From contig CAZDYP010000001.1 in NCBI GenBank assembly GCA_964509505.1, positions 1-61,108 of the forward strand: a stretch of 61,108 bases of DNA, in the 5' to 3' direction. The translations under genes and the position numbers were made by a program. The notes below the pieces were generated by a model. The model was not told where the DNA came from and did not search any database. It saw nothing but the letters and a program-made list of their open reading frames with translations. Numbering within the stretch: the first letter of the stretch is position 1; each line of letters starts with the position of its first letter. Below, one piece after another: positions 9,236-57,868 of this stretch. Origin of the DNA: an uncultured Anaerolineae bacterium. GTDB lineage: Bacteria; Chloroflexota; Anaerolineae; JACRMK01.

Positions 9236-11755
9236 TTATTGTAATCCCTTCTCCTTCGCCCACTGTCGCACCTGTGAGCGCGCCGTGAAGCCTAACTTGT
9301 TGAAGATGTTGCTGACGTGCGTCTCAATCGTGCGTTCACCCAACACCAACTTCTCGGCGATCTCGCGGTTGCTCAGTCCTTGCCCGACGAGCGCGGCGAC
9401 TTCACGCTCGCGCGCGGTCAAGCCACCTACAGACCCGAAGGGTTTGGCAAACCCTTCGGGTCTCTCTGGAACTTGCAACAACTCCGCTTCGGCGAGTGCT
9501 TGGCGCAATGTCAACTTGCTTCCCGCTTCCCACGCGACGTTGAACGCTTCGTCGCCCAGTTGCGTTCGCAATGCCTCACGCTCGCGCTCAAATTCGGGGC
9601 GATCATCAGGTGTGATGACTCTATAAACGAATGAGTGTCGTGTGTTCACTGTACTGAGCCAGCGCGCTGCATTCTGCCCTTGTCCAACCACACGCGCCAG
9701 CGCGGCAAATCCCAACAGACAATGTGCTAATGGAAATGTAGTTTCCGACTTACGTGCTAACACCAGCGCTTCTGTGAGATGTAGGCGTGCTTCCCTGTAA
9801 TGCCCTTCAGTCGCCGCGACTCGTCCCAACGCAACGAATATATTATCGGTGCCTATGGGATTGTCCAGTTTGTCTCGGATTGCCAGTCCCTCTTCCAGCC
9901 ATTGTCGCGCCCGCGCGTAATCCCCTTGCACGCGCGCTGCTTCTCCAAGCATGTAGGACGCATTCGAGATCAGGAGATCATAACCTCCTTCCCGCGCCCG
10001 CGCCAGCAGGTCTGCAAAAATGGCTTGTCCTGCCGGATAATTTCCTGTATGGTAATCCAGTGAGCCAAGCGCCATGAGTGAGACATAGATTTGAGCAACG
10101 TCACCCGACTCGCGCGCTAAGCCAACGCTCTCATCTAAGAGGACACGCGCCGTGGCGAGGTCGCCCTGTCTCCCAACAGCAAGGGCTTGTGCAACCAAGG
10201 TGCTCGCCAAAAAGCTCTTATGCCCCGTTTGTCGCAAGAGCGACAGACTACGCTCGGTGAATGCACGTGCGTTGGGCATGTCACCTTGCATAAACATAAA
10301 ATGTGCTGCCAAACGCAAAGCACGACCATACCAGGTGCGCTCTTCGGCGGGCGCGGTAGTGTCAGTTTCAAGCTGTGGATTGAGCGCCAATGCCTGCTCA
10401 AGCCACTGTCGTCCTTCGGCAAGGTGGCTGTACACATGCCATAACACATACACCCTTACACTCAAGCGCAACGCTGCTGCTGGGTCGGGCGTGTTCATCG
10501 CCCAACCCAACGCCGCGCGCAAATTGTCCACCTCGCGCACCAGACGCTGCCACTTATCCAGTTGCACAACAGTCATACTGCTTGGCGCAACGGTTGGGGT
10601 AAACGCTAAGAAGTACGCGAGATGGCGCGAGCGCACCGCCTCACTCTCCCCCGACTCCGCCAACTTCTCCAACGCATACTCACGGATCGTCTCCAACATG
10701 CGATAGCGTGGCGCAACGCTCTCCTCATCCAACAGCACCAACGACTTGTCCACCAGATGCGTCAGCATCTCCAGAATGCCAGTCGGCAGTAGCCAGTCGT
10801 CAGTCGGCAGATGTATCTGCTGGCTACCGACGACTGAGGACTGGCTACTGCACACTGCTTCTGCCGCCTCCAACGTCCACCCGCCCGCGAACACGGACAA
10901 GCGTCGCAACAACACCCGCTCGGGTTCGGATAACAGATTGTGACTCCAATCAATCGCCGCGCGCAAGGTTTGTTGGCGGCGCAACGCGGTGCGGCTGCCG
11001 CCCGTCAGCAAGAGGAAACGACTGTGCAAGCGTTCCGCGACTTGTTCGACGCGCATGGCTTTGACGCGCGCCGCTGCCAACTCAATGGCGAGTGGGATGC
11101 CATCCAAGCGTTGACAGATTTGCGCGACCGCTGCGGTGTTGGCGTCGGTCAACTGAAACGTAGCTTGCACCGCCTGTGCGCGGTCAACAAACAACTGCAC
11201 GGATTCCAACTGCGCGAGCTCGGTAGTTGGAATTTGAGAATTGGGATTTGGGATTTCTAGCGACGGCACTTGAAAGGTGCGCTCACCTGTGATGCCGAGC
11301 GCCTCACGGCTGGTGGCTAAAATTTTCACGTGGGGACAGGCGTGCAACACGCTATCCGCGAATTGCGCGCACGCATCAATCAGATGTTCACAGTTGTCGA
11401 GCAGGAGCAACAACTGTTTGGCGCGCAACCAATCCAGGAGCGTCGCCATGATGGGGCGCCCTGGTTCTTCGCGCACACCCAAGACGGTGGCAACGGTTTG
11501 CGGGACGAGCGCGGGGTCGGCGAGCGGCGCGAGTTCGATGAACCACACGCCATCGGGGAACGCCAGACCCGAAGGGTTTTGGAAACCCTTCGGGTCTGCA
11601 ACCTGCAACGCGAGGCGTGTCTTACCCGTGCCGCCCACGCCCGTGAGCGTGAGCAGATGCGTCGTGGCGAGCAGCTGCTTGAGGTGCGTCATCGCCTGTT
11701 CGCGTCCGATGAAACTGGTCGGTTGAATGGGGAGGTTATGCGGGATCGTTGGCAT
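9236..11755 (-). CDS. large ATP-binding LuxR-family regulator (STAND NB-ARC-like NTPase + TPR + C-terminal LuxR/GerE HTH), copy 1
   Basis: 839 aa; Walker A GVGGTGKTRLA, LLLLDNCEH Walker B, TPR-like middle, C-terminal LTAREREVAALVGQGLSNREIAEKLVLGERTIETHVSNIFNKLG. Confidence 0.85.
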   Translation of the reverse strand: MPTIPHNLPIQPTSFIGREQAMTHLKQLLATTHLLTLTGVGGTGKTRLALQVADPKGFQNPSGLAFPDGVWFIELAPLADPALVPQTVATVLGVREEPGRPIMATLLDWLRAKQLLLLLDNCEHLIDACAQFADSVLHACPHVKILATSREALGITGERTFQVPSLEIPNPNSQIPTTELAQLESVQLFVDRAQAVQATFQLTDANTAAVAQICQRLDGIPLAIELAAARVKAMRVEQVAERLHSRFLLLTGGSRTALRRQQTLRAAIDWSHNLLSEPERVLLRRLSVFAGGWTLEAAEAVCSSQSSVVGSQQIHLPTDDWLLPTGILEMLTHLVDKSLVLLDEESVAPRYRMLETIREYALEKLAESGESEAVRSRHLAYFLAFTPTVAPSSMTVVQLDKWQRLVREVDNLRAALGWAMNTPDPAAALRLSVRVYVLWHVYSHLAEGRQWLEQALALNPQLETDTTAPAEERTWYGRALRLAAHFMFMQGDMPNARAFTERSLSLLRQTGHKSFLASTLVAQALAVGRQGDLATARVLLDESVGLARESGDVAQIYVSLMALGSLDYHTGNYPAGQAIFADLLARAREGGYDLLISNASYMLGEAARVQGDYARARQWLEEGLAIRDKLDNPIGTDNIFVALGRVAATEGHYREARLHLTEALVLARKSETTFPLAHCLLGFAALARVVGQGQNAARWLSTVNTRHSFVYRVITPDDRPEFEREREALRTQLGDEAFNVAWEAGSKLTLRQALAEAELLQVPERPEGFAKPFGSVGGLTAREREVAALVGQGLSNREIAEKLVLGERTIETHVSNIFNKLGFTARSQVRQWAKEKGLQ
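9432..9464. repeat. 33-nt palindrome of the GACCCGAAGGGTT family, in frame in LAL-1 linker
   Basis: AGACCCGAAGGGTTT-GGC-AAACCCTTCGGGTCT; translated ERPEGFAKPFGSV just before the LuxR HTH. Confidence 0.8.
10779..10850. repeat. heptamer-built inverted repeat (CAGTAGC/CAGTCGG words) in frame in LAL-1
   Basis: Left arm 10779-10810, right arm 10817-10850; encodes SSQSSVVGSQQIHLPTDDWLLPTG. Confidence 0.7.
11227..11257. repeat. heptamer run (TTGGRAT words) within LAL-1 coding sequence
   Basis: TTGGAAT TTGAGAA TTGGGAT TTGGGAT TTC; encodes EIPNPNSQIPT. Confidence 0.6.
11564..11598. repeat. 35-nt perfect palindrome, in frame after the P-loop of LAL-1
   Basis: CAGACCCGAAGGGTTT-TGG-AAACCCTTCGGGTCTG (16-bp arms); translated ADPKGFQNPSGLA. 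Confidence 0.85.
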
Positions 11756-12783: not shown

Positions 12784-15306
12784 CTAATCTAGTCCCTGCT
12801 CCTTCACCCACCGCCGCACCTCCGCGCGGCGCGTGAAGCCCAACTTGTTGAAGATGCTGCTGACATGCGATTCTACTGTGCGCTCGCCAATGACGAGCGA
12901 TTCTGCGATCTCGCGATTGCTCATGCCTTGTGCGACGAGTGAAGCGACTTCGCGCTCGCGCGCCGTCAACCCACCAAAATCTTGTTTGGCGGTTGGGATT
13001 TGGGGTTTGGGAGTTGGGATTTCTGTAGGTTCGGTGAGCGCGAGCGCGACTGCTTCATCCAACGTCATGCGTCGTCCTGCTTCCCACGCCGCATTGAAAT
13101 CCGCTTCGGAGAATTGCATGCGCACCGTGGCGAGGGTATGCTCTTGTTCACGTTGATTAACAGGCCAACGATACTGACTACCTCTGGCTTCAAGAAAGGC
13201 TTGGATAGCTCCACATAGTCGTGTGGCTCGTTCCAAGTGTCCTCGTGCAGCTCTCACGCTGGCGAGCGTCATCAGGCAGGCGGCCAGGTTTGGAATGTCT
13301 TCCAATTCTTTTGCCAGCACAAGGCTTTCTCTCGCCAACATTTCTGCCCGCGCAGGGTCGCCTTGCTGCACTGCTACCGCCGCCATAAACTGGAGCAATA
13401 CTGCCCGCACGTTTTTGTCTCCCGTTGCACGCTGTAGGGCCAAACCTTCCTCGCCCAACTGTTGCGCCGTGGCGTAGTCGCCCTCAGCCAAAAAAAGACT
13501 CCCTAGTCTACTGAGTGTGCGGGCGATTTGAATTTTGTCACCGAACTCCCGCGCGCGAGTCAAGCCCTGTGCATACCATGAGTGCGCGGCGGCATAATCA
13601 CCTTGAGACTCTGCTACCGACCCTAACCCGAGCAACGATACTACCGTTGTTGCTTTATCACCTAGGGTCCGACCGATAGACAGGCTTTCCTCAAGGTGTG
13701 CTTGTGCTGTTGCGTAGTCGCCGTGCATCCTAAACATATTGCCCAGGAGTCGCAGCGAAAGAGCCATGCCTCGTCTATCTCCAACGTCCCGCGAGATACT
13801 CAATCCCTCTTCACTGTATGAGCGTGCTAAGGCGAGGTCGCCTTGCCGAAAAGCTAATCTGCCAACAGCGATAAGCCCCCTTGCACGCGCGACGGTTTGT
13901 GCTTCCGCTCCGACGTGCGCTAAGGCAGCGGTTAAACGCTCACGTCCTTCACTCACAGGACCGCGTGAAAACCAGAAACTCCACAGCGCCGCTGCCAACC
14001 TCAGGCCCGCAACCGCGTCGCTGCTGTGCAACGCCCAATCCAGCGCCGCTCGGATGTTATCGTACTCCACCTCCAACCGATTGAACCATATCGCTTGCTC
14101 AGGACCTTCTAGTTTCGACTCGGCAGCTTCAGCGAACTGCACGAAAAAGGTGAGATGCCGCTCGCGCACTGGCTCGCTCTCACCTGAAGCCAACAACTTC
14201 TCGCGCGCATATTGCCGCACCGTCTCCAACATTCGGTAGCGTGTCTGTCCCTCAAACTCCTCTGTGATTACAAGCGATTTGTTGACGAGTTGGGTTAGCA
14301 AGTCCAGCACCTCATCAGTAGCCAGTAGCCAGTCGTCAGTAGTCAGATGGGGCTGGCTACTGGTTACTGACGACTGTCTACTGCATACCGCCTCCGCCGC
14401 CTCCAGTGTCCACCCACCCGCGAACACGGAGAGGCGTAACAACAGGGTGCACTCAGGCGCGGTCAACAAACTGTAACTCCAATCAATCGCCGCGCGCAGC
14501 GTTTGTTGGCGCGGCACCGCCGTGCGACTACCGCCCGTCAACAAGCGAAAGCGATCATCCAAGCGCGCTGCAATTTGCTCGACGGAGAGAGCCTTCACAC
14601 GCGCCGCCGCGAGTTCGAGCGCGAGCGGGATGCCATCCAAGCGTTGACAAATCTGCACGACGGCAGCTGCGTTGGCTTCCGTCAACTGGAAATGCGATTG
14701 CACCGCCTGTGCGCGCTCGACAAACAGTTGCACGGATTCCAGTTGCGCGAGCTCAGCCGTTGGGAGTTGGGAATTGGGAGTTGGGAGTTGCAGCGAGGGC
14801 ACTTGAAAGGTTTGTTCACCCGCGATGCCGAGTGCCTCGCGACTCGTGGCTAAAATCTTCACATCGGGGCACGCATGTAACATGGTGTCCGCGAATTGCG
14901 CGCACGCATCAATCAGATGTTCGCAGTTGTCGAGGAGGAGTAACAGAGATTTCGCACGCAACCAATCCACGAGCGTCGCCGTGATGGGACGCCCCTGTTC
15001 TTCGCGCACACCCAAGACCGAGGCGACGGTTTGCGGCACGAGCGAAGGATCAGCGAGTGGCGCGAGCTCGATGAACCACACGCCATCGGGGAACGCCAGC
15101 CCCGAAGGGTTTTGGAAACCCTTCGGGGCTGCAATTTGCAAGGCGAGGCGGGTCTTGCCCGTGCCGCCGACGCCCGTGAGGGTGAGCAGCTGCGTGGTGG
15201 CGAGCAGTTGCTTGATTTGCGCCATCACCTGTTCGCGCCCGATGAAACTCGTCGGTTGGAGGGGAAGATTATGTAAAAGCACGGACCCTCCGCTCACTCT
15301 CGACAT
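12784..15306 (-). CDS. large ATP-binding LuxR-family regulator (STAND NTPase + TPR + LuxR HTH), copy 2
   Basis: Track ORF starts at 15333 inside a heptamer array. ATG at 15306 (MSRVSGGSVLLHNLPLQPTSFIGRE) aligns with the LAL-1 N-terminus. Walker A GVGGTGKTRLA; C-terminal LTAREREVASLVAQGMSNREIAESL. Confidence 0.85.
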   Translation of the reverse strand: MSRVSGGSVLLHNLPLQPTSFIGREQVMAQIKQLLATTQLLTLTGVGGTGKTRLALQIAAPKGFQNPSGLAFPDGVWFIELAPLADPSLVPQTVASVLGVREEQGRPITATLVDWLRAKSLLLLLDNCEHLIDACAQFADTMLHACPDVKILATSREALGIAGEQTFQVPSLQLPTPNSQLPTAELAQLESVQLFVERAQAVQSHFQLTEANAAAVVQICQRLDGIPLALELAAARVKALSVEQIAARLDDRFRLLTGGSRTAVPRQQTLRAAIDWSYSLLTAPECTLLLRLSVFAGGWTLEAAEAVCSRQSSVTSSQPHLTTDDWLLATDEVLDLLTQLVNKSLVITEEFEGQTRYRMLETVRQYAREKLLASGESEPVRERHLTFFVQFAEAAESKLEGPEQAIWFNRLEVEYDNIRAALDWALHSSDAVAGLRLAAALWSFWFSRGPVSEGRERLTAALAHVGAEAQTVARARGLIAVGRLAFRQGDLALARSYSEEGLSISRDVGDRRGMALSLRLLGNMFRMHGDYATAQAHLEESLSIGRTLGDKATTVVSLLGLGSVAESQGDYAAAHSWYAQGLTRAREFGDKIQIARTLSRLGSLFLAEGDYATAQQLGEEGLALQRATGDKNVRAVLLQFMAAVAVQQGDPARAEMLARESLVLAKELEDIPNLAACLMTLASVRAARGHLERATRLCGAIQAFLEARGSQYRWPVNQREQEHTLATVRMQFSEADFNAAWEAGRRMTLDEAVALALTEPTEIPTPKPQIPTAKQDFGGLTAREREVASLVAQGMSNREIAESLVIGERTVESHVSSIFNKLGFTRRAEVRRWVKEQGLD
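12986..13023. repeat. heptamer run (TTGGGNT words) in frame in the LAL-2 pre-HTH linker
   Basis: TTGGCGG TTGGGAT TTGGGGT TTGGGAG TTGGGAT TTC; encodes EIPTPKPQIPTAKQ. Confidence 0.65.
14316..14383. repeat. heptamer-built inverted repeat (CAGTAGC words) in frame in LAL-2
   Basis: 31-nt arms 14316-14346 / 14353-14383, 23 of 31 positions complementary by hand alignment; encodes SRQSSVTSSQPHLTTDDWLLATDE. Confidence 0.7.
14760..14794. repeat. heptamer run (TTGGGAG words) within LAL-2 coding sequence
   Basis: TTGGGAG TTGGGAA TTGGGAG TTGGGAG TTGCAGC; encodes LQLPTPNSQLPT. Confidence 0.65.
15097..15131. repeat. 35-nt perfect palindrome, in frame after the P-loop of LAL-2
   Basis: CAGCCCCGAAGGGTTT-TGG-AAACCCTTCGGGGCTG; differs from the LAL-1 copy by a paired A>C / T>G change that keeps the stem. 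Confidence 0.85.
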
Positions 15307-15312
15307 CAAATC

Positions 15313-15347
15313 TGATGACTGAACACTGAACACTGATTACTGAACAC
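15313..15347. repeat. heptamer run (TGAACAC words) at the LAL-2 5' end / divergent promoter region
   Basis: TGATGAC TGAACAC TGAACAC TGATTAC TGAACAC. Confidence 0.7.
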
Positions 15348-15403: not shown

Positions 15404-15994
15404 ATGATTTCACGATTGCGCGGTAAAACGATTGCGAAGGGCAGCGACCATTTGATGGTGGATGTGAACGGCATCGGCTTGAAGGTGCGCGCGCCGACGC
15501 CGTTGCTCGATACGGTGGCGACGCTCGGCAAAGAGGTGAACCTGTACACGCATCTGCGCCTCGCGGAGAATGGGCGCGAGATCGAAGCGATGTTGTTTGG
15601 CTTTGGTTCGCCCGAAGACTTGGCGCTGTTCGAGTTGTTGCTCACTGTATCGGGCGTGGGGCCCAAGGTGGCGCTGAGTGTGTTGTCGGCGGCGTCGGCG
15701 GATGCGGTGCGTGCGGCGATCATGCAGGGCAATGCGCAAGTGCTCACGCAATATCAAGGCATCGGCAAGAAGACTGCGGAGCGTATCGTCGTCGAATTGA
15801 AGAGCAAGATCAAGAGCATGGGCGCGGATGAGCTGATTGCCGTGTCTGCTACTGATAACGAAGCGGTTGCCGCCTTGACTGCGCTTGGTTACAGTGTGAT
15901 GGAGGCGCAGCGCGCATTGGCGTCGGTGGGGGATGAAGCGCAAACGACAGAGGACAAAGTGTTAGCGGCGTTGCGGTATTTGGGTGGGGCATAA
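15404..15994 (+). CDS. ruvA: Holliday junction DNA helicase subunit RuvA
   Basis: 196 aa; MISRLRGK..DHLMVDVNGIGLKV N-terminus, HhH region LLTVSGVGPKVAL, GIGKKTAERIV, C-terminal domain III. Confidence 0.9.
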   Translation: MISRLRGKTIAKGSDHLMVDVNGIGLKVRAPTPLLDTVATLGKEVNLYTHLRLAENGREIEAMLFGFGSPEDLALFELLLTVSGVGPKVALSVLSAASADAVRAAIMQGNAQVLTQYQGIGKKTAERIVVELKSKIKSMGADELIAVSATDNEAVAALTALGYSVMEAQRALASVGDEAQTTEDKVLAALRYLGGA

Positions 15995-15996
15995 AG

Positions 15997-16027
15997 AAGT
16001 AATCAGTAAGCAGTAGTCAGTCGCCAG
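15997..16027. repeat. heptamer run (CAGTARN words) just after the ruvA stop
   Basis: AAGTAAT CAGTAAG CAGTAGT CAGTCGC CAG. Confidence 0.65.
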
Positions 16028-18770: not shown

Positions 18771-20177
18771 TCATGGCTTCTCCTTCAGCCACACCGTAAA
18801 CGTGCTGCCCTTGCCCAGTTCGCTCTCAACCTCGATGCGACCGCCGTGCGCTTGCGCGATCCATTGAGCGATGGACAAGCCCAGTCCCGTGCCGCCTTGC
18901 GCGCGTGTGCGCGCTTTGTCCACACGATAGAAGCGCTCGAAGATGTGCGGCACATCCTCCGAGGGGATGCCGAGCCCCGTGTCGCTTACGCTAAAGCCGA
19001 CCTCGCCGCTTTGTTTACGGATTGCCAATTGAATCTCGCCGCTCGGCGTGTATTTAATCGCGTTCTCGACTAGATTCAACAGCAATTGTTTCAAGCGATC
19101 AGGATCGCCCTCGACGAGGGCTTGGTCTTCGTGTCCGAGCGTCACCCTCAAATCGCCGTTGCGTCCAGTCGTCATTACACGCGCTTGGCGATACACTTCG
19201 AGCATCAACGTATCGAGCTCAACCGTTTCCTTCTTTAACATGGTCGCGCCTGCGTCGCTTTGCGCCAACAACAACAAATCAGAGATCAGGCGCGTCATAC
19301 GTTGCGCTTCTTGCTCGATAGCGTCATACACAGCTTGCGCATCGGGGGGAGCGAGCTTTTGCAACAGGGCAAGCTGGCCGCGGATGATAGTCAAGGGCGT
19401 GCGCAGCTCGTGCGAGAGGTCAGCGATGAAGCGCTGTTGGGCGCGGAACAAATTCTCCAAGCGCCCCAACATTTCGTTAAAGGTGATGGCGAGACGATCT
19501 ACTTCATCGCCTTTGTACGTTTCGGGAACGCGTTGGGCGAGGTCGGGCGTGCGGGCGATGGCTCGCGCCGTGCGGGTGATGCGGTCAATCGGCTTGAGCG
19601 CGGAGCCTGCCAGCGCGTAGCCAATCACGGCGACGATGGCGATGGCGGAGAGTGAGCCAACGATTAACAGTAATGCTAGACGATTGAGGGTCAGCTCGTT
19701 GCGCCGCAGCGAGCTGGCAATCTGGATGACGCCGACGACATTTTGATCAATCGTCAAAGGCGCGGTCAACAGGCGGAAGCGCTCACGCTCTTCCCAGAGG
19801 AATGTCGAATAAGTAAACTGTTTGTTGCGGGCGGCGGCGAACAACGTGGCATCGCGCGGTAGCGATGCGTTGCCGAGGTTTTCCGAATGTGCTAACGCAT
19901 TGCCATCGGTGGAGGAAATTTGTACGAGTAAATCTGTCGTGGAGATGACATCGCGCGGAATGATGAGCGGCGCGCGTCCGAAAAAGCGTTGGCGAAATGA
20001 AGTGAGCAACGCCGTTTGCACTTGGTCGCGTTGCGCGTCGAGCTCGGCGTCGAGCTCATTACGCAAATTGAACGCGACAGCCCCATACAACAGCAAGCTG
20101 AAAATCGTGACGACGATGGCGAGCAGCCCACTATACCAAAGGGTAAGGCGAAGGCGGATAGACATAAAACGCGTCAT
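18771..20177 (-). CDS. sensor histidine kinase (2 TM, HAMP, HisKA, HATPase_c)
   Basis: 468 aa; H-box SHELRTPLT, N-box LLNLVENAIKYT, G-boxes DTGLGI and GGTGLGLSIA. Confidence 0.9.
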   Translation of the reverse strand: MTRFMSIRLRLTLWYSGLLAIVVTIFSLLLYGAVAFNLRNELDAELDAQRDQVQTALLTSFRQRFFGRAPLIIPRDVISTTDLLVQISSTDGNALAHSENLGNASLPRDATLFAAARNKQFTYSTFLWEERERFRLLTAPLTIDQNVVGVIQIASSLRRNELTLNRLALLLIVGSLSAIAIVAVIGYALAGSALKPIDRITRTARAIARTPDLAQRVPETYKGDEVDRLAITFNEMLGRLENLFRAQQRFIADLSHELRTPLTIIRGQLALLQKLAPPDAQAVYDAIEQEAQRMTRLISDLLLLAQSDAGATMLKKETVELDTLMLEVYRQARVMTTGRNGDLRVTLGHEDQALVEGDPDRLKQLLLNLVENAIKYTPSGEIQLAIRKQSGEVGFSVSDTGLGIPSEDVPHIFERFYRVDKARTRAQGGTGLGLSIAQWIAQAHGGRIEVESELGKGSTFTVWLKEKP

Positions 20178-20179
20178 CT

Positions 20180-20238
20180 GTCATGTGTCAAGTGTCTTGC
20201 GCCTCGCTTGCCGTGCCACATGACACTTGACACATGGC
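20180..20238. repeat. heptamer-based hairpin between response-regulator stop and kinase start
   Basis: GTCATGTGTCAAGTGTC (20180-20196) pairs with GACACTTGACACATGGC (20222-20238), 1 mismatch, 25-nt loop. Confidence 0.7.
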
Positions 20239-20242
20239 ACGG

Positions 20243-22555: not shown

Positions 22556-22564
22556 AGGGATATT

Positions 22565-22591: not shown

Positions 22592-22595
22592 ACCA

Positions 22596-25577: not shown

Positions 25578-25594
25578 GTGTAGCGGATGATGAT

Positions 25595-25645: not shown

Positions 25646-25648
25646 ACT

Positions 25649-25691: not shown

Positions 25692-25696
25692 ATGAT

Positions 25697-25747
25697 GTAG
25701 GACAAATTTGCAACTTGGCTTGCGGGCAAATTACAAACTTGCCCTAC
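25697..25747. repeat. 51-nt palindromic element, copy 2
   Basis: Arms GTAGGACAAATTTGCAAC / ATTACAAACTTGCCCTAC; 102-nt period with copy 1. Confidence 0.75.
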
Positions 25748-25764
25748 ACTGACTGAGCGACCCA

Positions 25765-26952: not shown

Positions 26953-27046
26953 GGGGAAATGATGAGGAGATTAGAGGAAATAAGGGCGGAATGCGCGTGC
27001 GATGTCCATTTCCCCTAGTCTCCCTTATTTCCCTGCATTGTAAAAG

Positions 27047-27679
27047 ATGATGCAAGAATTGACTATTGCGTTGCCGAAAGGTCGTTTGCTCGAAAAGTCG
27101 TTGCAGACGTTAGCCGCGGCGGGCTTGTCGTTTCCTGACGCACATGCGGATTCACGTCGTTTGATGTTCAACGATACGCGCAAGTGGACGCGCGCCATTC
27201 TCGTCAAGCCTGTGGATGTGGTGACGTATGTTGAGCATGGCGCGGCGGATGTGGGCATCGTTGGCGAAGATGTGGTGCACGAATCGGCGGTGGATGTCTT
27301 GCAACCTTTGACGCTTCCTTTCGGGCAATGTAGAATCGTCGTTGCGGGACGCCCCGACCAGCGCGACCTCAACTTTCGTCTGCTGACGAATTTGCGTGTG
27401 GCGACGAAATATCCGCGTCTGACGCGCACACACTTTTTGCAACGCGGTCTCAGCGCCGAAATCATTGCGTTGAGTGGTTCGATTGAACTGGCGCCCGCCA
27501 TTGGTCTCGCCGACTTGCTGGTGGACGTGGTGGACACGGGGCGCACGCTCAAAGAAAATGGCTTGATCGAGCTTGAAACCATCATGCGCTGTTTTGCCTG
27601 CGTCATCGTCAACCGCGCCAGCCAAGTCATCAAGACCGACAGCATCAACCAATTGCTAGGAGGAATTTCTGATTTTTGA
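27047..27679 (+). CDS. hisG: ATP phosphoribosyltransferase, short form
   Basis: 210 aa; LTIALPKGRLLEKS, VKPVDVVTYVEHGAADVGIVGEDV, VATKYPRLT, LVDVVDTGRTLKENGL. Confidence 0.9.
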   Translation: MMQELTIALPKGRLLEKSLQTLAAAGLSFPDAHADSRRLMFNDTRKWTRAILVKPVDVVTYVEHGAADVGIVGEDVVHESAVDVLQPLTLPFGQCRIVVAGRPDQRDLNFRLLTNLRVATKYPRLTRTHFLQRGLSAEIIALSGSIELAPAIGLADLLVDVVDTGRTLKENGLIELETIMRCFACVIVNRASQVIKTDSINQLLGGISDF

Positions 27680-27708
27680 TTTTGACCCGTAAGCCAAAAT
27701 CAAAAATC
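27671..27708. repeat. perfect 14-bp heptamer hairpin spanning the hisG stop codon
   Basis: GATTTTTGATTTTG (27671-27684), 10-nt loop, CAAAATCAAAAATC (27695-27708); more AAAAATC units run to the next ATG at 27720. Confidence 0.85.
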
Positions 27709-27719
27709 AAAAATCAAAA

Positions 27720-28400
27720 ATGCGGATAGACCTCCATACTCATACCTTCTTTTCCGACGGCGCCTTGTTGCCCAGCGAGTTGTTGCGTCGCGCTGTCGTC
27801 AAAGGCTACAGCGTCATCGCTATCACCGACCACGCCGACGCCTCGAATCTGGAAGAGCTCATTGGTCGTTTGCAGCATTTCGCGCAGCAGCAGCATGGCG
27901 ATTTCCCGATCGAATTATTGATTGGCGTCGAGCTCACGCACGTGCCGCCCGCGCGTATTCCGTTGCTGGCGCAAGAAGCAAAACATTTTGGCGCGGACAT
28001 CGTCGTCGTGCATGGCGAGACCATGACGGAGCCAGTGGCGAAGGGGACAAATCGCGCCGCCGTCGAATGTGAGTTTGTGGACATCTTGGCGCATCCAGGT
28101 TTCGCGACGTTGGACGAAGCGCGCATCGCGGCGGCGACAGGCGTGCATCTGGAGATTACGTCCAGTCGTGGCCATGCGCTGACCAATGGGCATGTGGCGC
28201 AAGTCGTGCGCGAGGCGGGCGCAAAGCTCATCGTCAATTCCGACACACATCGCGCCGATGATTTGATGGATCAGGAGCGTGCGATTGATATTGCGTTGGG
28301 TGCAGGCTTGAGCGTGATGGAGGCAGAGATTGCGGCGGTGCAGAATCCGCGAGCATTGGTGGATCGAATTTTGCAACGACGACATGCGCGGGTGGTGTGA
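27720..28400 (+). CDS. PHP-domain phosphoesterase (candidate histidinol-phosphatase)
   Basis: 226 aa; MRIDLHTHTFFSDG, ITDHAD, VVVHGE, NSDTHRADD metal-ligand motifs; position inside the his operon. Confidence 0.7.
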   Translation: MRIDLHTHTFFSDGALLPSELLRRAVVKGYSVIAITDHADASNLEELIGRLQHFAQQQHGDFPIELLIGVELTHVPPARIPLLAQEAKHFGADIVVVHGETMTEPVAKGTNRAAVECEFVDILAHPGFATLDEARIAAATGVHLEITSSRGHALTNGHVAQVVREAGAKLIVNSDTHRADDLMDQERAIDIALGAGLSVMEAEIAAVQNPRALVDRILQRRHARVV

Positions 28401-30470: not shown

Positions 30471-31577
30471 ATGTCTTTCGATTATAGCACGCTCATTCGT
30501 CCTGACATCTTGGCGCAACCGCTTGAGCAATGGACGAACTCGCTCGAAGCGGCTTCCAAACGCCTAGGCATTCCGATTGAGAAGCTTGCCAAGCTCGGCA
30601 CCAACGAAAACTTGTACGGGCCCTCGCCCAAAGTGAAAGAAACCATTGCCAACTTTAACGAGCTCTATTACTATCCTGACCCACTATACATCAATCTGCG
30701 GAATACCTTAGCGCGACACACAGGCGCAGCAGCCGACCGCATCATCGTCGGCAATGGTCTCGATGAAGTGATTCAGTTGGTGACGCGCGTGCTGTTGCGA
30801 CCCAACGACGCGATTCTCGTTTGCCCCCCCAACTTCGAGGTCTATAATGCCGAAGCGGAGACTGCACATGGGCGCGTCGTCTCTGTGCCGCGCCGTGTTG
30901 ACCTGTCGCTTGATTGGGATGCGATTGAGCGCGCATGGGCTGAACATGAGAACATCAAGCTGATTTGGCTCACGTCGCCGAACAATCCCGATGGCGCGTT
31001 GCTCCCGCGCGAGGATTTGCTCCATATTCTGAAGCTGCCTGCCTTTGTGATGGTGGATGAAGCCTACATTGATTTTGCGCCCGCCTCGGCTTCACATCTC
31101 GAATTGACGGCGACGCATCCAAACATCGCCGTGTTGCGCACTTTCAGCAAGGGCCCCGCGTTGGCGGGCGTGCGTGTGGGTTATGGTGTGTTTCCCAAAA
31201 TTCTCGCGGATAATCTCTGGAAAATTATCCAGCCGTTCAATGTGAATGTATTAGGGGCGGTGGCAGCGCAAGCGGCGCTGGACGATTGGGATTACACACG
31301 CCAGATTGCCGCCAAGATCATTGACGAGCGCGAGAAACTATTCGAGGAACTGGCGCAGTTTCCATTCCTGCAACCTTATCGCAGCCATGCGAATTTTCTC
31401 CTGTGCAAAGTTGTCGGACGGTCGGCGGCGGATTTGCGGAATGATTTGGCGAAGCAGGGTATCTTGATTCGCGCGATTGACAGTCCACAGTTGCCCAATC
31501 ACCTCCGCATCACGATTGGCACACCGCGCGAGACGAAGATGTTGTTGGACGCATTGAAAGTAGTCAGTAGTCAGTAA
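30471..31577 (+). CDS. hisC: histidinol-phosphate aminotransferase
   Basis: 368 aa; class-II aminotransferase motifs, NPNNPDG, VMVDEAYIDF, RTFSKGPALAGVRVGYG (PLP lysine). Confidence 0.9.
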   Translation: MSFDYSTLIRPDILAQPLEQWTNSLEAASKRLGIPIEKLAKLGTNENLYGPSPKVKETIANFNELYYYPDPLYINLRNTLARHTGAAADRIIVGNGLDEVIQLVTRVLLRPNDAILVCPPNFEVYNAEAETAHGRVVSVPRRVDLSLDWDAIERAWAEHENIKLIWLTSPNNPDGALLPREDLLHILKLPAFVMVDEAYIDFAPASASHLELTATHPNIAVLRTFSKGPALAGVRVGYGVFPKILADNLWKIIQPFNVNVLGAVAAQAALDDWDYTRQIAAKIIDEREKLFEELAQFPFLQPYRSHANFLLCKVVGRSAADLRNDLAKQGILIRAIDSPQLPNHLRITIGTPRETKMLLDALKVVSSQ

Positions 31578-31588
31578 CCAGTAGTCAG
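31561..31588. repeat. heptamer run (TAGTCAG words) spanning the hisC stop
   Basis: TAGTCAG TAGTCAG TAACCAG TAGTCAG; supplies the C-terminal residues VVSSQ*. Confidence 0.7.
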
Positions 31589-32198: not shown

Positions 32199-32199
32199 A

Positions 32200-32244
32200 A
32201 ATCCCCAATCCCCAATTCCAACCCCCCAATTGGGATTGGGGATT
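32200..32244. repeat. heptamer hairpin (CCCCAAT words) between hisB and hisH
   Basis: AATCCCCAATCCCCAATT ... AATTGGGATTGGGGATT, one-base bulge. Confidence 0.8.
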
Positions 32245-32260
32245 GGGGGGGATTGTTACG

Positions 32261-34193: not shown

Positions 34194-34955
34194 ATGGAAA
34201 TTTTTCCTGCGATTGATTTGCGCGGCGGTCAGGTCGTGCGTTTGAAACAGGGCGATCCCAACGCGCAGACGACGTTCTCCGATAGCCCTACGGCGATGGC
34301 GCAACAGTGGGTGCGGCAAGGCGCGCGGTGGTTACACATCGTCAATCTAGATGGCGCGTTCACGGGCGATACCCCCTTCGTGCAATTGGGCAGACCTCAC
34401 GCCAATCTTGATGCGTTGCGCGACATCTTGCAAACCGTGGATGTGCCTGTGCAGTTTGGCGGCGGCTTGCGCGATTTGCCCAGCATCGCTTATGTGATTG
34501 GCTTAGGGGCGGCGCGGGTGATTATCGGCACGGCGGCAGTGAAAAAGCCTCAGCTTGTGAGCGAAGCCATCGCCACATTCGGCGCGGAGAAAATCGTCGT
34601 CGGTCTTGATGCAAAAGAGGGCGCAGTCGCTACGCATGGTTGGCAAGAAATGTCGGCGTTGCGCGTGGGTGAAGTTGCGCTACGGATGAAAACGCTGGGG
34701 GTGCAGCGTGTCGTTTTCACTGATATTTCGCGTGATGGGATGTTGCAAGGTGTGAATGCTGCAGCCACATACCAATTAGCCAAAGATAGCGATTTGAAAA
34801 TCATCGCATCAGGCGGCGTTGCATCATTAGGTGATATTCGCCAATTGAAAGCCGCTGAGTGTGAGGGCGTCGAAGGCGTGATCGTAGGTCAAGCGTTGTA
34901 CACAGGCGCAATCAATTTACCAGAAGCAATTAAAATTGCAGATGGCAAATTGTAG
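34194..34955 (+). CDS. hisA: 1-(5-phosphoribosyl)-5-[(5-phosphoribosylamino)methylideneamino]imidazole-4-carboxamide isomerase
   Basis: 253 aa; [45 protein letters not shown]. Confidence 0.95.
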
Positions 34956-34998
34956 ATTGAAAAATAATTCGCAATCTGCCATTTGCCATGTGCCAGCT
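34939..34998. repeat. heptamer hairpin (GCCATYT words) whose left arm is the last hisA codons
   Basis: GCAGATGGCAAAT (coding IADGKL*) opposed to ATTCGCA ATCTGCC ATTTGCC ATGTGCC. Confidence 0.6.
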
Positions 34999-35816: not shown

Positions 35817-36140
35817 ATGATCATGCAACTCAAATTTGATGCAAATGGTTTGGTGCCTGCCATCGTGCAAGACGCGCAGACCAAAGAAGTCTTGATGATG
35901 GCGTACATGACTCGTGAATCAGTGCAGCGCACGCTCGCGTTGGGCGAGACGGTGTTCTGGAGCCGCAGTCGTAACGAACTTTGGCGCAAGGGCGAGACGT
36001 CAGGCAACACGCAGCGCGTCGTCGCCATGCGCGCGGATTGTGATGGCGATACATTGCTCATTCTAGTCGAACCGCGCGGGCCCGCTTGTCACACGGGAGC
36101 CGTGAGCTGTTTCTTCAACGAGCTAGAGCTGGGAGATTAG
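35817..36140 (+). CDS. hisI: phosphoribosyl-AMP cyclohydrolase
   Basis: 107 aa; [45 protein letters not shown]. Confidence 0.9.
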
Positions 36141-36195
36141 CGACCGGATGCCAAGCGTTAATCTCTAAGCTCTAATTTGCTAATCTCTCATCTCC
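36120..36195. repeat. heptamer hairpin whose left arm is the last hisI codons
   Basis: GAGCTAGAGCTGGGAGATTAG (ELELGD*) opposed to TTAATCT CTAAGCT CTAATTT GCTAATC TCTCATC. Confidence 0.6.
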
Positions 36196-47011: not shown

Positions 47012-47049
47012 CGAATGGCCAATGGCCATCTGCCATCCGCCATCACCAG
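46994..47049. repeat. heptamer array (GCGAATA / GCCATCY words) spanning the cyclase stop
   Basis: GTGGCGA ATAGCGA ATAGCGA ATGGCCA ATGGCCA TCTGCCA TCCGCCA TCACCAG; supplies the C-terminal VANSE*. Confidence 0.75.
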
Positions 47050-47655: not shown

Positions 47656-47668
47656 CGCAATAACAGTA

Positions 47669-47733
47669 GCGAATGGCGAATAGCGAATGGCGGATGGTTT
47701 TCAACTATCCGCCATCGGCTATCTGCCATCGGC
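47669..47733. repeat. heptamer hairpin between convergent toxin and giant genes (bidirectional terminator candidate)
   Basis: GCGAATGGCGAATAGCGAATGGCGGATGG, loop TTTTCAACT, ATCCGCCATCGGCTATCTGCCATCGGC; about 21 of 27 arm positions pair, one of them a G-U; right arm reaches the giant gene stop. Confidence 0.7.
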
Positions 47734-54053: not shown

Positions 54054-54116
54054 CATCGCCATCTACTATCCGCTATTCGCCGTCTGCCATTCGCCATTCG
54101 CCATCTACCATTTACA
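54054..54116. repeat. nine-unit heptamer array (ATTCGCC words)
   Basis: CATCGCC ATCTACT ATCCGCT ATTCGCC GTCTGCC ATTCGCC ATTCGCC ATCTACC ATTTACA. Confidence 0.8.
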
Positions 54117-57758: not shown

Positions 57759-57826
57759 GGGCTGTCTTCACCAACGCAGATTTCTTAGACAAGCGGCGCA
57801 CCATCTCTGATGCGCCGCGCTAATCT

Positions 57827-57868
57827 GGTTACTGGCTACTGGCTACTGCCCACTACCTACTGTTTACA
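57827..57868. repeat. heptamer run (GGCTACT words) spanning the thiolase stop
   Basis: GGTTACT GGCTACT GGCTACT GCCCACT ACCTACT GTTTACA. Confidence 0.75.

What the first reader, a model, noticed from the sequence alone, without database searches (positions are those of the whole stretch)
27671..27708. Period-7 (heptanucleotide) hairpins occupy almost every gene junction
The cleanest example has a perfect 14-bp stem, GATTTTTGATTTTG / CAAAATCAAAAATC, that includes the hisG stop codon.

Comparable heptamer tracts or hairpins occur at 8814, 15313, 15997, 16071, 20180, 31561, 32200, 34939, 36120, 46994, 47669, 54054 and 57827. A few word families are reused: CAGTAGY, GCGAATR/GCCATYY, TTGGGAK/CCCCAAT, AAAATCA, TGTCAAG, TTCAACY.

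This resembles the STRR heptamer repeats known from heterocystous cyanobacteria. Here, though, the repeats are organised as stem-loops placed between cistrons of operons (his operon, RR-HK pair) and at convergent gene ends. Possible roles are terminators, mRNA-stability or processing sites, or translational decoupling. None is established.
Basis: partly seen in the sequence, partly recalled or inferred. Interest (0 to 1): 0.7.

Follow-up and report, generated by a model that had tools for sequence, protein, structure and literature searches.

The report
Seven-base tandem repeats at gene ends
This uncultured Chloroflexota genome is peppered with short tandem repeats of 7-base units, often paired into hairpins between genes; this is a real but already known kind of bacterial repeat (as in cyanobacteria, Xanthomonas and Chloroflexus) whose function is still unproven.

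Summary
The hisG hairpin (27671-27684 / 27695-27708, 14 perfect pairs, TGA inside the left arm) is exactly as described. Period-7 tracts are about 11-fold commoner than in shuffles (19 vs 1.75) and about 12-fold denser in non-coding than coding DNA.

They occupy only 10-12 of 51 gene junctions, not "almost every" one. About half are hairpins (mirror-image tracts); the rest are unstructured single tracts.

The window is a metagenome contig of an uncultured Chloroflexota; its nearest genomes are Caldilineaceae. Related contigs carry the same kind of tracts.

None of the hairpins looks like an intrinsic terminator. Canonical GC-stem plus U-run terminators sit separately at operon ends.

The class is known: cyanobacterial STRR (including hairpins between hupS and hupL), Xanthomonas GGGAATC inverted pairs, TAACTGA repeats, and (GATAGRA)n in Chloroflexus.

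Best reading: slippage-born heptanucleotide satellites plus inverted duplication, kept where tolerated. Stop-to-start hairpins may couple or damp translation, but this is unproven. Verdict: new member of a known kind, modest interest.

The parts
27664..27721 (.). hisG/PHP junction: (ATTTTTG)2.7, a 10-nt loop, then (AAAATCA)3.7. The hairpin is about 20 bp (14 perfect pairs). The hisG TGA is in the 5' arm and the 3' arm ends 4 nt before the PHP-gene ATG (27720). No SD sequence.
   Evidence: (-15.9 kcal/mol, z -3.6)
20173..20240 (.). Response-regulator/histidine-kinase junction (genes on the - strand): (GTCATGT)n / (CACATGA)n hairpin with 15 contiguous pairs that mirror the order of unit variants. 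It fills the 65-nt spacer from the RR stop to the HK ATG.
   Evidence: -37.7 kcal/mol, z -4.7
32199..32250 (.). hisB/hisH junction: (AATCCCC)n / (GGGATTG)n hairpin of 20 pairs, 2 of them G.U on the sense strand. The unit is the same as Nostoc GGGGATT.
   Evidence: (-36.7, z -3.6)
34942..34995 (.). hisA/hisF junction: GCAGATGGCAAAT... / ...ATTTGCCATGTGC hairpin of the GCRRATR family. The hisA TAG (34953-34955) is inside the 5' arm.
   Evidence: -29.4 for 34925-35010, z -4.4
36124..36174 (.). End of hisI: quasi-heptamer hairpin (TAGAGCT GGGAGAT / TAATCTC TAAGCTC) that includes the hisI TAG (36138-36140).
   Evidence: z -2.4
46993..47045 (.). End of the 1296-aa cyclase-STAND gene: (GCGAATA)n followed by (GCCATCY)n. 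The arms differ from perfect complementarity only by A/G transitions, so the hairpin is weak on the + strand (-21.7) and strong on the - strand (-36.3, via G.U pairs).
47667..47743 (.). Convergent gene ends: (GCGAATR)n / (CYATCNGC)n hairpin. It is the strongest in the window.
   Evidence: -47.7, z -7.5
31556..31588 (+). hisC/hisB junction: single tract (AGTAGTC)4.3 that contains the hisC TAA. No significant structure.
   Evidence: z -1.3
15312..15347 (.). Single tract (ACTGAAC)n between the divergent STAND-LuxR gene (start 15282 by the JGI call) and ruvA. It probably lies in the 5' UTR of the STAND gene. Unstructured.
   Evidence: (z +0.7)
15994..16021 (+). Single tract (AGTAATC/AGTAGTC)n straight after the ruvA stop. 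A separate canonical terminator follows at 16032-16067.
54056..54112 (.). Single tract (CGCCATT)n, the complement of the GCGAATG family, upstream of the Crp-like gene. Unstructured.
   Evidence: z +1.2
57824..57854 (.). Single tract (CTGGCTA)n, which reads CAGTAGC on the sense (-) strand, straight after the thiolase stop. Unstructured.
   Evidence: z +0.35
14316..14383 (-). In-frame (CAGTNNN)n / (NNNACTG)n hairpin inside STAND-LuxR gene 12784-15282. It encodes ...SRQSSVTSSQPHLTTDDWLLATD... at a loop that is 10 aa long in most homologs.
   Evidence: (-38.2, z -2.8)
10778..10855 (-). The same in-frame hairpin in the paralog 9236-11755. It keeps its pairing through a compensatory TA to CG change.
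   Evidence: -53.7
14758..14791 (-). In-ORF (TCCCAAC)n tract encoding QLPTPNSQLPT. Sister tracts lie at 11227-11256 (paralog) and 12985-13022 (linker before the LuxR HTH). The first site has the same length in homologs, so it is not an insertion.
8814..8848 (-). In-ORF (CAGTATT)n tract encoding ASIQYSVVSIP, after the thioredoxin-like part of the 562-aa ORF 7525-9213.

Best explanation
These are heptanucleotide simple-sequence repeats of the STRR / 'long SSR' class, a property of this lineage's genome as a whole.

Origin (inferred):
1. Tandem tracts arise in place by replication slippage of whatever 7-mer is present. The length is fixed and the sequence is almost free.
2. Some tracts are then copied in inverted orientation by fold-back or template switching. 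This gives hairpins whose two arms mirror each other unit by unit.
3. Selection removes copies that break genes. Survivors therefore pile up in spacers, over the last codons of genes (units carrying TAG, TGA or TAA end any ORF within 21 nt), and in tolerant protein loops or linkers when the length is a multiple of 3.

They are not transcription terminators.

Likely effect (inferred):
- The hairpin subset is transcribed inside operons and bridges the upstream stop codon (5' arm) to the downstream ribosome-binding region (3' arm).
- The most likely consequence is translational coupling or damping of the downstream cistron, plus some protection of the upstream RNA.
- This is a side effect that may have been co-opted at some junctions.

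What is shown and what is inferred:
- Shown: the enrichment, the anatomy, the distribution, the in-frame copies, the mirror arms and the absence of terminator features.
- Inferred: slippage and inverted duplication as the origin, and the effect on translation.
For: Enrichment and lineage distribution:
- Period 7 alone is enriched: 19 tracts vs 1.75 in shuffles; 10 vs 0.09 in non-coding DNA.
- Density is 3.1 tracts per 10 kb in the window and 3.4 in the related contig L166. It is 0.2 in 69 loci from diverse phyla, where period 7 shows no excess over other periods.

Unit diversity:
- 110 tracts across all loci give 89 distinct units. This fits a length-specific, sequence-blind process. It matches Mrazek's polymerase-slippage proposal as cited in PMC4679880 and PMC4692102.

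Mirror-image arms:
- The arms mirror the order of unit variants at 20173-20240, at 27664-27715 (including the 6-nt unit next to the loop) and at 47667-47743 (read from the sequences).

Copies inside genes:
- Most homologs have 10 aa at the site of the STAND hairpin, while the window paralogs have about 25 aa.
- The consensus in-frame TAG is replaced by TCG, and the change is mirrored in the other arm.

No sign of selection on the sense RNA:
- There is no consistent sense-strand advantage in folding. The hisG hairpin is -15.9 sense and -26.4 antisense; 46985-47060 is -21.7 and -36.3.

Turnover at the hisG/PHP junction:
- Relatives with 77% PHP identity carry CAGTAGC-type tracts, one at 63% carries an AATTCGC palindrome, and one at 71% carries nothing.

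Not terminators:
- No heptamer hairpin is terminator-like. Real GC-stem plus U-run terminators lie at 16032-16067, 25546-25569 and 38757-38800.

Geometry:
- Upstream stops lie in or within 3 nt of the 5' arm. The 3' arms end 3-15 nt before the start codon at four junctions, three of which have no SD.
Against: Points against purely non-adaptive repeats:
- In another clade of PHP-gene relatives, the (AGTGTTT)n tract just upstream of the gene is 75-78% identical between contigs whose fourfold-degenerate sites are saturated (26-30% identical). This points to constraint, or to targeted re-acquisition.
- L118 and L130 share the same tract and the same PHP gene behind different upstream genes.
- The two STAND paralogs (82% DNA identity) keep their hairpins through a compensatory change.
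- Heptamer tracts recur at the same his junction in several distant relatives: 5 of 80 at lag 7, against 0-2 at other lags.
- The right arm of the L166 intergenic CAGTAGC hairpin differs at only 3 of 31 positions from the window's in-ORF copy. This hints at dispersal rather than purely local birth.

Gaps in the evidence:
- No copy-number variation was seen, but the available strain contigs are 99.2-100% identical, so this says little.
- The stop-to-start geometry would arise for anything that fills a 40-65 nt spacer, so it is not independent evidence for coupling.
Confidence: 0.55

Rival explanations
1. Selected cis-acting RNA elements. The heptamer tracts and hairpins would be maintained because they regulate expression within operons. 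Possible modes are translational coupling or masking of the downstream start, binding of an RNA-binding protein (S1, Csp or CsrA-like, as proposed for TAACTGA repeats), or protection of the upstream cistron from 3' exonucleases, as REP elements do.
For: - (AGTGTTT)n upstream of the PHP gene is conserved 75-78% where fourfold sites are saturated, and it travels with the downstream gene.
- Tracts recur at the same his junction in distant relatives.
- The hairpins bridge stop to start, and no SD is present before the PHP, HK and hisF genes.
- The paralogous hairpins show a compensatory change.
- In Xanthomonas the repeat type (single or inverted pair) is preserved between species.
- MacGregor 2015 proposes translational regulation for TAACTGA repeats.
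Against: - The unit at the hisG/PHP junction differs completely among the nearest relatives and is absent in one.
- Folding is no better on the sense strand.
- Half the tracts have no structure.
- The same elements sit inside coding sequence.
- About half of the genes without tracts also lack an SD, so a missing SD is not specific to tract-preceded genes.
- 89 different units make a single binding protein unlikely.
Confidence: 0.25
2. Small non-autonomous mobile elements (REP/BIME-, MITE- or RPE-like). Whole hairpin units would be copied to new sites by a transposase encoded elsewhere in the genome, including in-frame insertion into genes.
For: - The same families recur at several sites: ACTGGCT at 4 sites, plus the GCGAATG family.
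- The right arm of the L166 intergenic hairpin nearly matches the window's in-ORF hairpin.
- An in-frame hairpin lies at a variable loop in STAND genes of several Chloroflexota.
- The genome also carries a 33-nt perfect palindrome in four in-frame copies, two of them 100% identical in different genes.
Against: - The window holds no transposase or RAYT gene.
- No target-site duplications or conserved loops and flanks are seen, and loops differ between copies.
- Unit diversity is very high.
- Many tracts are single-armed.
Confidence: 0.1
3. DNA-level sites. The periodic tracts or cruciforms would bind a nucleoid protein, gyrase or a regulator, or form non-B DNA (G-quadruplex or i-motif for the GGGGATT family). 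They would act on supercoiling or transcription at gene ends.
For: - Folding is symmetric between strands.
- Tracts occur between convergent and divergent genes as well as inside operons.
- GGGGATT and GGGAATC repeats form G4 structures in vitro (PMC4692102).
Against: - Only one family is G-rich, and the units are too diverse for one binding protein.
- Nothing in the window links the tracts to a binding factor.
Confidence: 0.06
4. Rho-independent terminators or attenuators, or phase-variable contingency loci.
For: - They are stable hairpins at gene ends.
- Tandem repeats can in principle slip.
Against: - None has a U-run or is flagged by the terminator scan, and they sit inside the his operon and an RR-HK pair. 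Canonical terminators exist elsewhere.
- No length polymorphism is seen among contigs from at least 8 samples, although these are 99.2-100% identical.
- Most tracts are not positioned to switch an ORF or a promoter.
Confidence: 0.04

Closest known systems
Cyanobacterial STRR (short tandemly repeated repetitive) heptamers, e.g. GGGGA(T/C)T / CCCCAAT in Nostoc PCC 7120, including the hupS-hupL intercistronic hairpins
   Same: - Tandem 7-nt units in several families, dispersed and mostly intergenic.
- Some form hairpins between cistrons.
- Some lie inside genes.
- The unit AATCCCC/GGGGATT is identical.
- Function is unknown, with the same speculations about stability and coupling.
   Different: - The host is an uncultured Chloroflexota with 55.7% GC, not a heterocystous cyanobacterium.
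- Most units differ from the STRR consensus sequences (consensus recalled from memory: CCCCA(A/G)T, TT(G/T)GTCA, CAACAGT).
- Arrays are short (2.5-5 units), whereas Nostoc has arrays of up to 26 units.
Xanthomonas GGGAATC heptamer repeats (Rehm et al. 2015, PMC4692102)
   Same: - 89-93% are intergenic and lie close to the 3' end of the upstream ORF.
- There are 70-75 inverted pairs per genome that can form stem-loops.
- They are located between co-directional genes.
- Lengths vary between species while the type (single or pair) is kept.
   Different: - Xanthomonas has a single G-rich unit; this window has at least five unrelated families.
- G-quadruplex potential applies only to the GGGGATT/TTGGGAT family here.
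TAACTGA direct repeats of Beggiatoaceae, Cyanobacteria and Bacteroidetes (MacGregor 2015, PMC4679880)
   Same: - Short sets of 2-6 units.
- They are intergenic and often overlap the upstream stop codon, because the unit gives stops in all three frames.
- Copies inside ORFs occur only in the stop-free orientation.
- SD sequences are rare downstream.
- The ACTG core is shared with the window's CAGTNNY / ACTGAAC family.
   Different: - TAACTGA repeats are one dominant unit and almost never inverted (one indirect repeat in 170 sets).
- They are strongly oriented just upstream of start codons.
- Here there are many units, frequent inverted pairs, and the CAGT-type single tracts lie just after stop codons.
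Heptamer-derived satellites of Chloroflexus aurantiacus, (GATAGRA)n (Subirana & Messeguer 2019, PMC6749651), and heptanucleotide long SSRs in general (Mrazek et al. 2007, as cited)
   Same: - The phylum is the same.
- The repeats are scattered and heptamer-based.
- Slippage is the proposed origin, and 7 nt is the favoured unit length across many bacteria.
   Different: - Chloroflexus has a single family of longer arrays.
- Hairpin pairing, placement at junctions and in-frame copies were not described there, as far as the passages I read show.
REP/BIME elements of enterobacteria and Rickettsia palindromic elements (from general knowledge)
   Same: - REP: intergenic palindromes inside operons that can stabilise upstream mRNA.
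- RPE: palindromic repeats inserted in frame into protein genes.
   Different: - Those are fixed-sequence palindromes, not tandem heptamers.
- REPs are mobilised by RAYT transposases, and no such gene is in the window.

Membership tests
Heptanucleotide long SSR / STRR-type repeats | Head-to-tail copies of a 7-nt unit, longer than chance allows | tested here: met
   TRF gives 26 rows with period 7. There are 19 tracts vs 1.75 in shuffles and 10 vs 0.09 in non-coding DNA.
Heptanucleotide long SSR / STRR-type repeats | Many dispersed copies, predominantly intergenic | tested here: met
   Tracts are spread over 8.8-57.9 kb of the window. Density is 40.5 tract-bp/kb in non-coding DNA and 3.5 in coding DNA, and 11 of 19 tract midpoints are non-coding (binomial P = 1.5e-7). 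Whole-genome scale could not be tested.
Cyanobacterial STRR sensu stricto | Unit matches an STRR consensus (STRR1 CCCCA(A/G)T, STRR2 TT(G/T)GTCA, STRR3 CAACAGT; recalled from memory) | tested here: inconclusive
   One junction (32199-32250) uses CCCCAAT/GGGGATT, the Nostoc unit. The other families (CAGTAGY, GCGAATR, AAAATCA, TGTCAWG) do not match.
Cyanobacterial STRR sensu stricto | Host is a (heterocystous) cyanobacterium | tested here: not met
   The nearest genomes by HisD are Caldilineaceae and other Chloroflexota at 55-57% identity. STAND homologs are annotated as Chloroflexota.
Intrinsic (Rho-independent) terminator | GC-rich stem directly followed by a U-run, at the end of a transcription unit | tested here: not met
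   No heptamer hairpin is in the terminator-like lists. The hairpins lie inside the his operon and an RR-HK pair. Canonical terminators lie at 16032-16067, 25546-25569 and 38757-38800.
Phase-variable contingency SSR | Copy number differs among closely related strains and switches an ORF or promoter | tested here: inconclusive
   No indel was found in any tract among contigs from at least 8 samples. These contigs are 99.2-100% identical, so the test is weak.
REP/BIME (RAYT-mobilised palindromes) | Conserved 20-40 nt imperfect palindrome family plus a RAYT (IS200/IS605-like) gene in the genome | tested here: not met
   The arms are tandem heptamers of many sequences. No transposase domain was found in any of the 50 window proteins scanned. 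The rest of the genome was not available.
MITE | Terminal inverted repeats, target-site duplication, and copies sharing an internal sequence | tested here: not met
   Loops and flanks differ between copies of the same family, and no target-site duplication is evident.
TAACTGA repeat system (MacGregor 2015) | Unit TAACTGA, direct repeats in forward orientation within a few nt upstream of start codons | tested here: not met
   No TAACTGA array appears in the TRF output. The related ACTGAAC tract at 15312-15347 lies 60 nt from the ruvA start, and CAGT-type tracts follow stop codons.

The most novel reading that the evidence does not exclude
The heptamer hairpins would not be mere slippage debris. 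They would be products of an active, hairpin-templated repeat-forming process shared by parts of the Chloroflexota (and perhaps by cyanobacteria and Xanthomonas).
- This process would seed at short motifs such as CAGT and keep the arms complementary by intrastrand correction.
- It would be able to colonise protein loops in frame, much as Rickettsia palindromic elements do.
- A subset, such as the tract upstream of the PHP-hisD genes, would have been recruited as conserved cis-regulatory RNA for his-operon expression.
Probability: 0.15. Interest if true: 0.6.

Novelty: new member of a known kind. Interest (0 to 1): 0.3.

Why it matters
Heptanucleotide repeats have been known since 1990, and neither their function nor the reason for the 7-nt unit has been settled.

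This window adds a well-documented case in an uncultured Chloroflexota lineage, with three useful features:
- Several unrelated unit families share the same period. This argues for a length-specific, sequence-blind origin.
- Hairpins have mirror-image arms that bridge stop and start codons inside a his operon. This is a convenient system for testing translational coupling.
- In-frame hairpin copies lie in paralogous STAND genes and carry a compensatory change.

The conserved (AGTGTTT)n tract upstream of the PHP gene in a related clade, despite saturated synonymous sites, is the best lead found here that some of these tracts are under selection.

None of this changes the current picture. It is mainly of practical value for annotation: ORF ends, spurious small ORFs such as 53963-54202, and over-called gene starts such as 15333 and 34936.

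Tried and rejected
- **Terminators:** rejected. No U-runs, no hits in the terminator scan, and canonical terminators lie elsewhere.
- **Sense-RNA selection via G.U asymmetry:** sense and antisense folds were compared and show no consistent bias.
- **Phase variation:** strain contigs from at least 8 metagenome samples were compared and show no tract variation. Divergence is too low (99.2-100% identity) for this to be decisive.
- **SD replacement:** genes preceded by tracts often lack an SD, but so do about half of all genes here. Not discriminating.
- **A universal core motif:** CAGT/ACTG occurs in 15 of 110 tracts against 5.5% expected. This is only a modest enrichment, and there are 89 distinct units.
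- **Site 1 of the STAND genes (LPTPNSQLPT) as an insertion:** rejected, because homologs have the same length there.
- **Known RNA families:** Rfam at gathering threshold finds only tRNA-Thr.
- **Source genome:** it is not in the species-representative collection (best HisD identity 57%), so no genome-wide scan was possible.
- **Literature:** several searches timed out. Mazel 1990, Vioque 1997, Mrazek 2007 and Elhai 2008 could not be read, so statements about them rest on memory or on citing papers.
Full report
**1. What the window is**

The window is a 61.1-kb stretch with 55.7% GC. Exact-protein look-ups place it on JGI metagenome contigs, for example Ga0394876_0007870 and Ga0484860_0006736, and on one Logan assembly.

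No species-representative genome holds it. The best HisD matches are Caldilineaceae and other Chloroflexota at 55-57% identity. It is therefore an uncultured Chloroflexota.

The gene map comes, with JGI gene calls. It includes:
- A his operon: hisZ, hisG, a PHP-domain protein, hisD, DUF5674, an unknown ORF, hisC, hisB, hisH, an epimerase, hisA, hisF, hisI, a 542-aa unknown, a Uma2 nuclease and hisE.
- A response-regulator/histidine-kinase pair.
- ruvA.
- Four STAND NTPase regulators.
- A 2012-aa FG-GAP protein.
- A GmrSD restriction gene.

**2. The observation**

The flagship hairpin is exactly as described.
- Positions 27671-27684 (GATTTTTGATTTTG) and 27695-27708 (CAAAATCAAAAATC) form 14 perfect pairs around a 10-nt loop.
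- The hisG TGA at 27677-27679 lies in the left arm.
- With one mismatch the stem reaches about 20 bp. The right-hand tract runs on to the ATG of the next gene at 27720. The RNA fold is -15.9 kcal/mol with z -3.6.

Period 7 is the dominant repeat period in the window.
- TRF gives period 7 for 26 of its 62 rows, and several period-14 and period-21 rows are harmonics of it.
- A lag-7 scan gives 19 tracts against 1.75 +/- 1.4 in Markov shuffles.
- In non-coding DNA alone there are 10 tracts against 0.09 expected. Tract density is 40.5 bp/kb in non-coding DNA and 3.5 bp/kb in coding DNA.

"Almost every gene junction" is not right.
- Of 51 junctions, 10-12 carry a period-7 tract.
- That is 8-9 of the 22 junctions with a 20-120 nt spacer, 2-3 of the 15 with longer spacers, and none of the 14 with spacers under 20 nt.
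- In the his operon it is 4-5 of 14 junctions.

**3. Anatomy: two forms**

Form (a) is an inverted pair of tracts that folds into a strong hairpin:

| Position | Junction | Energy (kcal/mol) | z |
|---|---|---|---|
| 20173-20240 | RR/HK | -37.7 | -4.7 |
| 27664-27715 | hisG/PHP | -15.9 | -3.6 |
| 32199-32250 | hisB/hisH | -36.7 | -3.6 |
| 34942-34989 | hisA/hisF | -29.4 | -4.4 |
| 47667-47743 | convergent gene ends | -47.7 | -7.5 |
| 36124-36174 | end of hisI | -35.4 (for 36105-36215) | -2.4 |
| 46993-47045 | end of the cyclase-STAND gene | -21.7 | -0.95 |

Form (b) is a single tract with no structure, with z between -1.3 and +1.2. These lie at 8814, 15312, 15994, 31556, 54056 and 57824.

In the hairpins the two arms mirror each other unit by unit.
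- They mirror the order of variant units: CATG/CAAG at 20173, the alternating ATGG/ATAG at 47667, and the 6-nt unit next to the loop at 27680.
- The arms are therefore inverted copies of an already heterogeneous tract. They are not two tracts that grew independently.

At 46993-47045 the arms differ from perfect complementarity only by A/G transitions.
- The hairpin is consequently weak on the + strand (-21.7) and strong on the - strand through G.U pairs (-36.3).
- Across all hairpins there is no consistent advantage for the sense strand.

**4. Not terminators**

- No heptamer hairpin is followed by a U-run, and none appears in the terminator-like lists.
- The organism does have canonical terminators (a GC stem plus a U-run) at operon ends: 16032-16067 after ruvA, 25546-25569, and 38757-38800 after hisE.
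- After ruvA the heptamer tract (15994-21) and the real terminator sit side by side as separate elements.

**5.

The paralogous STAND-LuxR genes 9236-11755 and 12784-15282 are 57% identical as proteins and 82% identical as DNA over the N-terminal kilobase. Both carry heptamer tracts at homologous positions.

Site 1, (TCCCAAC)n encoding QLPTPNSQLPT, has the same length in all homologs. It is not an insertion.

Site 2 is a (CAGTNNN)n / (NNNACTG)n hairpin.
- It folds at -38.2 in one paralog and -53.7 in the other.
- It lies in a loop that is 10 aa long in 34 of 63 homologs but about 25 aa long here.
- Homologs from other Chloroflexota (P0008, P0014, P0015) have their own CAGT-type, hairpin-encoded insert at the same loop. 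For P0014 the DNA confirms (CAGTNNN)n followed by its complement.
- The consensus unit CAGTAGC would give an in-frame TAG. The copy has TCG instead, and the other arm carries the matching CGA.
- Between the paralogs a TA to CG change is compensated.

Because 7 and 3 are coprime, every frame of a heptamer tract encodes the same cyclic 7-aa repeat. Any unit with a stop triplet ends an ORF within 21 nt.
- This explains why stop codons so often lie inside the tracts (hisG, hisC, hisA, hisI and the gene ending at 47011).
- The stop codon in the stem is a consequence, not a design feature. MacGregor made the same point for TAACTGA.

**6. Relatives**

Strain-level contigs from at least 8 samples are 99.2-100% identical to the window and show no change in any tract. 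This argues against hypermutability, but only weakly.

L166 comes from the same sample series (56% GC; its STAND protein is 71% identical).
- It has 6 tracts in 17.8 kb, all at gene junctions.
- One is a CAGTAGC hairpin whose right arm differs at 3 of 31 positions from the window's in-ORF copy.

Two of the Caldilineaceae-labelled loci, L001 and L003, have heptamer tracts. L001 also has hairpin pairs, one of which has arms flanking a palindrome of roughly 110 nt.

As background, 69 loci from diverse phyla have 0.2 tracts per 10 kb and no excess of period 7 over other periods. The window has 3.1.

At the orthologous hisG/PHP junction the content turns over:
- Contigs with 77% PHP identity carry AGTAGCC-type tracts.
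- One at 63% carries an AATTCGC palindrome.
- One at 71% carries nothing.

In a more distant clade the picture differs.
- L118, L126, L144 and L154 carry a tract (AGTGTTT)n immediately upstream of the PHP gene.
- It is 75-78% identical between contigs whose fourfold sites are only 26-30% identical.
- L118 and L130 share the same tract and the same PHP gene behind different upstream genes.
- This is the strongest hint of constraint that I found.

Across all loci, 110 tracts give 89 distinct units. The CAGT/ACTG core is only about 2.5-fold enriched.

**7. Explanation**

I commit to the following, with about 0.55 confidence. These are heptanucleotide simple-sequence repeats of the STRR / long-SSR class.
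- They are born by slippage. The process is length-specific and sequence-blind, which fits the diversity of units.
- Some are then duplicated in inverted orientation, which fits the mirror-image arms.
- They are retained where they do no harm: in spacers, over the last codons of genes, and in protein loops when in frame.

Slippage and inverted duplication are inferences. The distribution, the anatomy and the in-frame copies are shown.

The hairpin subset bridges the upstream stop (in or within 3 nt of the 5' arm) to the downstream start region. The 3' arms end 3-15 nt before the ATG at four junctions, and the PHP, HK and hisF genes have no SD.
- The most likely molecular effect is translational coupling or damping, with some 3'-end protection.
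- This geometry is expected for anything that fills a 40-65 nt spacer, so it remains an inference.

The main rival (0.25) is that the tracts are selected cis-regulatory RNA elements. It is supported and by the compensatory changes. It is weakened by the turnover in the nearest relatives, the lack of strand bias and the in-ORF copies.

The other rivals rank lower:
- Mobile elements: 0.1.
- DNA-level protein-binding or non-B DNA sites: 0.06.
- Terminators or phase variation: 0.04.

**8. Comparison with what is known**

- Hairpins made of 7-bp STRR units between hupS and hupL in Nostoc, Anabaena and Lyngbya are described, with proposed roles in transcript stability or translational coupling (PMC2670836).
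- Rehm et al. 2015 describe GGGAATC repeats in Xanthomonas. They are 89-93% intergenic, lie on average 28 nt from the upstream ORF, and form 70-75 inverted pairs per genome. The same paper describes GGGGA(T/C)T in Nostoc.
- MacGregor 2015 describes TAACTGA repeats that overlap stop codons, lie inside ORFs in the stop-free orientation, and have few SDs downstream.
- Geobacter metallireducens has GGGACCG x4 at 49 sites.
- Chloroflexus aurantiacus has 22 satellites derived from (GATAGRA)n (PMC6749651).
- Mrazek et al. 2007 (as cited) found heptanucleotides to be the most abundant long-SSR class and proposed polymerase slippage.

The kind, the hairpin arrangement, the junction placement, the in-ORF copies and even the phylum all have precedents. 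No paper in the searchable library combines 'heptanucleotide' with 'Chloroflexi'. Apart from the Chloroflexus satellite note, this lineage's repertoire appears undescribed.

**9. Verdict**

- The feature is real and highly significant, and partly mis-described.
- The STRR-like reading is supported, the supposed difference from STRR is not a difference, and the terminator role is rejected.
- It is a new member of a known kind.
- Interest is about 0.3.
- The most useful leads are the conserved tract upstream of the PHP gene in a related clade and the in-frame hairpins in the STAND genes.

Noticed in passing
window 9431-9463, 11565-11597, 15098-15130, 44413-44445: There are four copies of a 33-nt perfect palindrome, AGACCCGAAGGGTTTTGGAAACCCTTCGGGTCT. 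All lie in frame inside STAND NTPase genes and encode e.g. (A/D)PKGFQNPSGLA or RPEGFGKPFGS. Two copies in different genes are 100% identical. One paralog carries a compensated variant (AGCCCC...GGGGCT). Homologs from other organisms have a similar 'GFENPSSLA' insert, and a variant lies intergenically in L166 at 9067. It looks like an RPE-like in-frame palindromic element.
   Followed up: partly
L118, L126, L130, L144, L154 (junction just upstream of the PHP gene): A tract (AGTGTTT)n followed by a second heptamer tract sits upstream of the PHP gene. It is 75-78% identical between contigs whose fourfold-degenerate sites are saturated (26-30% identical). L118 and L130 have identical PHP genes and tracts but different upstream genes, so a rearrangement breakpoint lies at the tract edge.
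   Followed up: partly
window 26953-27035: A long imperfect hairpin that is not heptamer-based (about 38 pairs, -42 kcal/mol, z -5.2) fills the hisZ/hisG spacer. It folds much better on the sense strand than on the antisense strand (-42.0 vs -30.9, with 7 G.U pairs).
   Followed up: partly
window 25583-25648 and 25685-25750; also 22560-22592: Two 66-nt direct copies (91% identical) lie between tRNA-Thr and hisZ. Each contains a palindrome, GTAGGAYAARTTTGCAA...TTACAAACTTGCCCTAC. A related palindrome, GTAGGGCAAATTGCCAATTTGCCCTAC, lies near 22570.
   Followed up: no
window 5766-5796, 16112-16142, 38843-38873, 40263-40293 (and about 59060-59190): A dispersed intergenic repeat family carries CGCGAAGAA / TTCTTCGCG motifs within larger, roughly 100-nt, MITE-like blocks that start with TTACGCAGT.
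   Followed up: no
window 29770-30449, 33135-34184, 36211-38438: The his operon is interrupted by genes unrelated to histidine synthesis: DUF5674, a 112-aa unknown, an NAD-dependent epimerase, a 542-aa protein with no Pfam match, and a Uma2-family nuclease. hisI and hisE are separate genes 2.3 kb apart.
   Followed up: no
window 54910-57758: A GmrSD-type restriction endonuclease gene with low GC3 (0.47, against about 0.65 elsewhere) lies next to a methyltransferase. It is probably a horizontally acquired defence island.
   Followed up: no
L001 8070-8310: In a MAG labelled Caldilinea aerophila, heptamer arms (GTAGGAA)n and (TACTTCC)n flank a near-perfect palindrome of roughly 110 nt (whole fold -121 kcal/mol). 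It looks as if a second palindromic element sits in the loop of a heptamer hairpin.
   Followed up: no
window 53963-54202, 15283-15333, 34936-35004: The heptamer tracts create or extend spurious ORFs. One is a 79-aa ORF encoding SPSTIRYSPSAIRHSPSTI. The mechanical ORF listing also places two gene starts too far upstream (GTG at 15333, TTG at 34936) compared with the JGI calls.
   Followed up: partly
window 46993-47045: The two hairpin arms differ from perfect complementarity only by A/G transitions, all of which are compatible with G.U pairing on the - strand. This could reflect directional deamination-type mutation or an antisense transcript.
   Followed up: no
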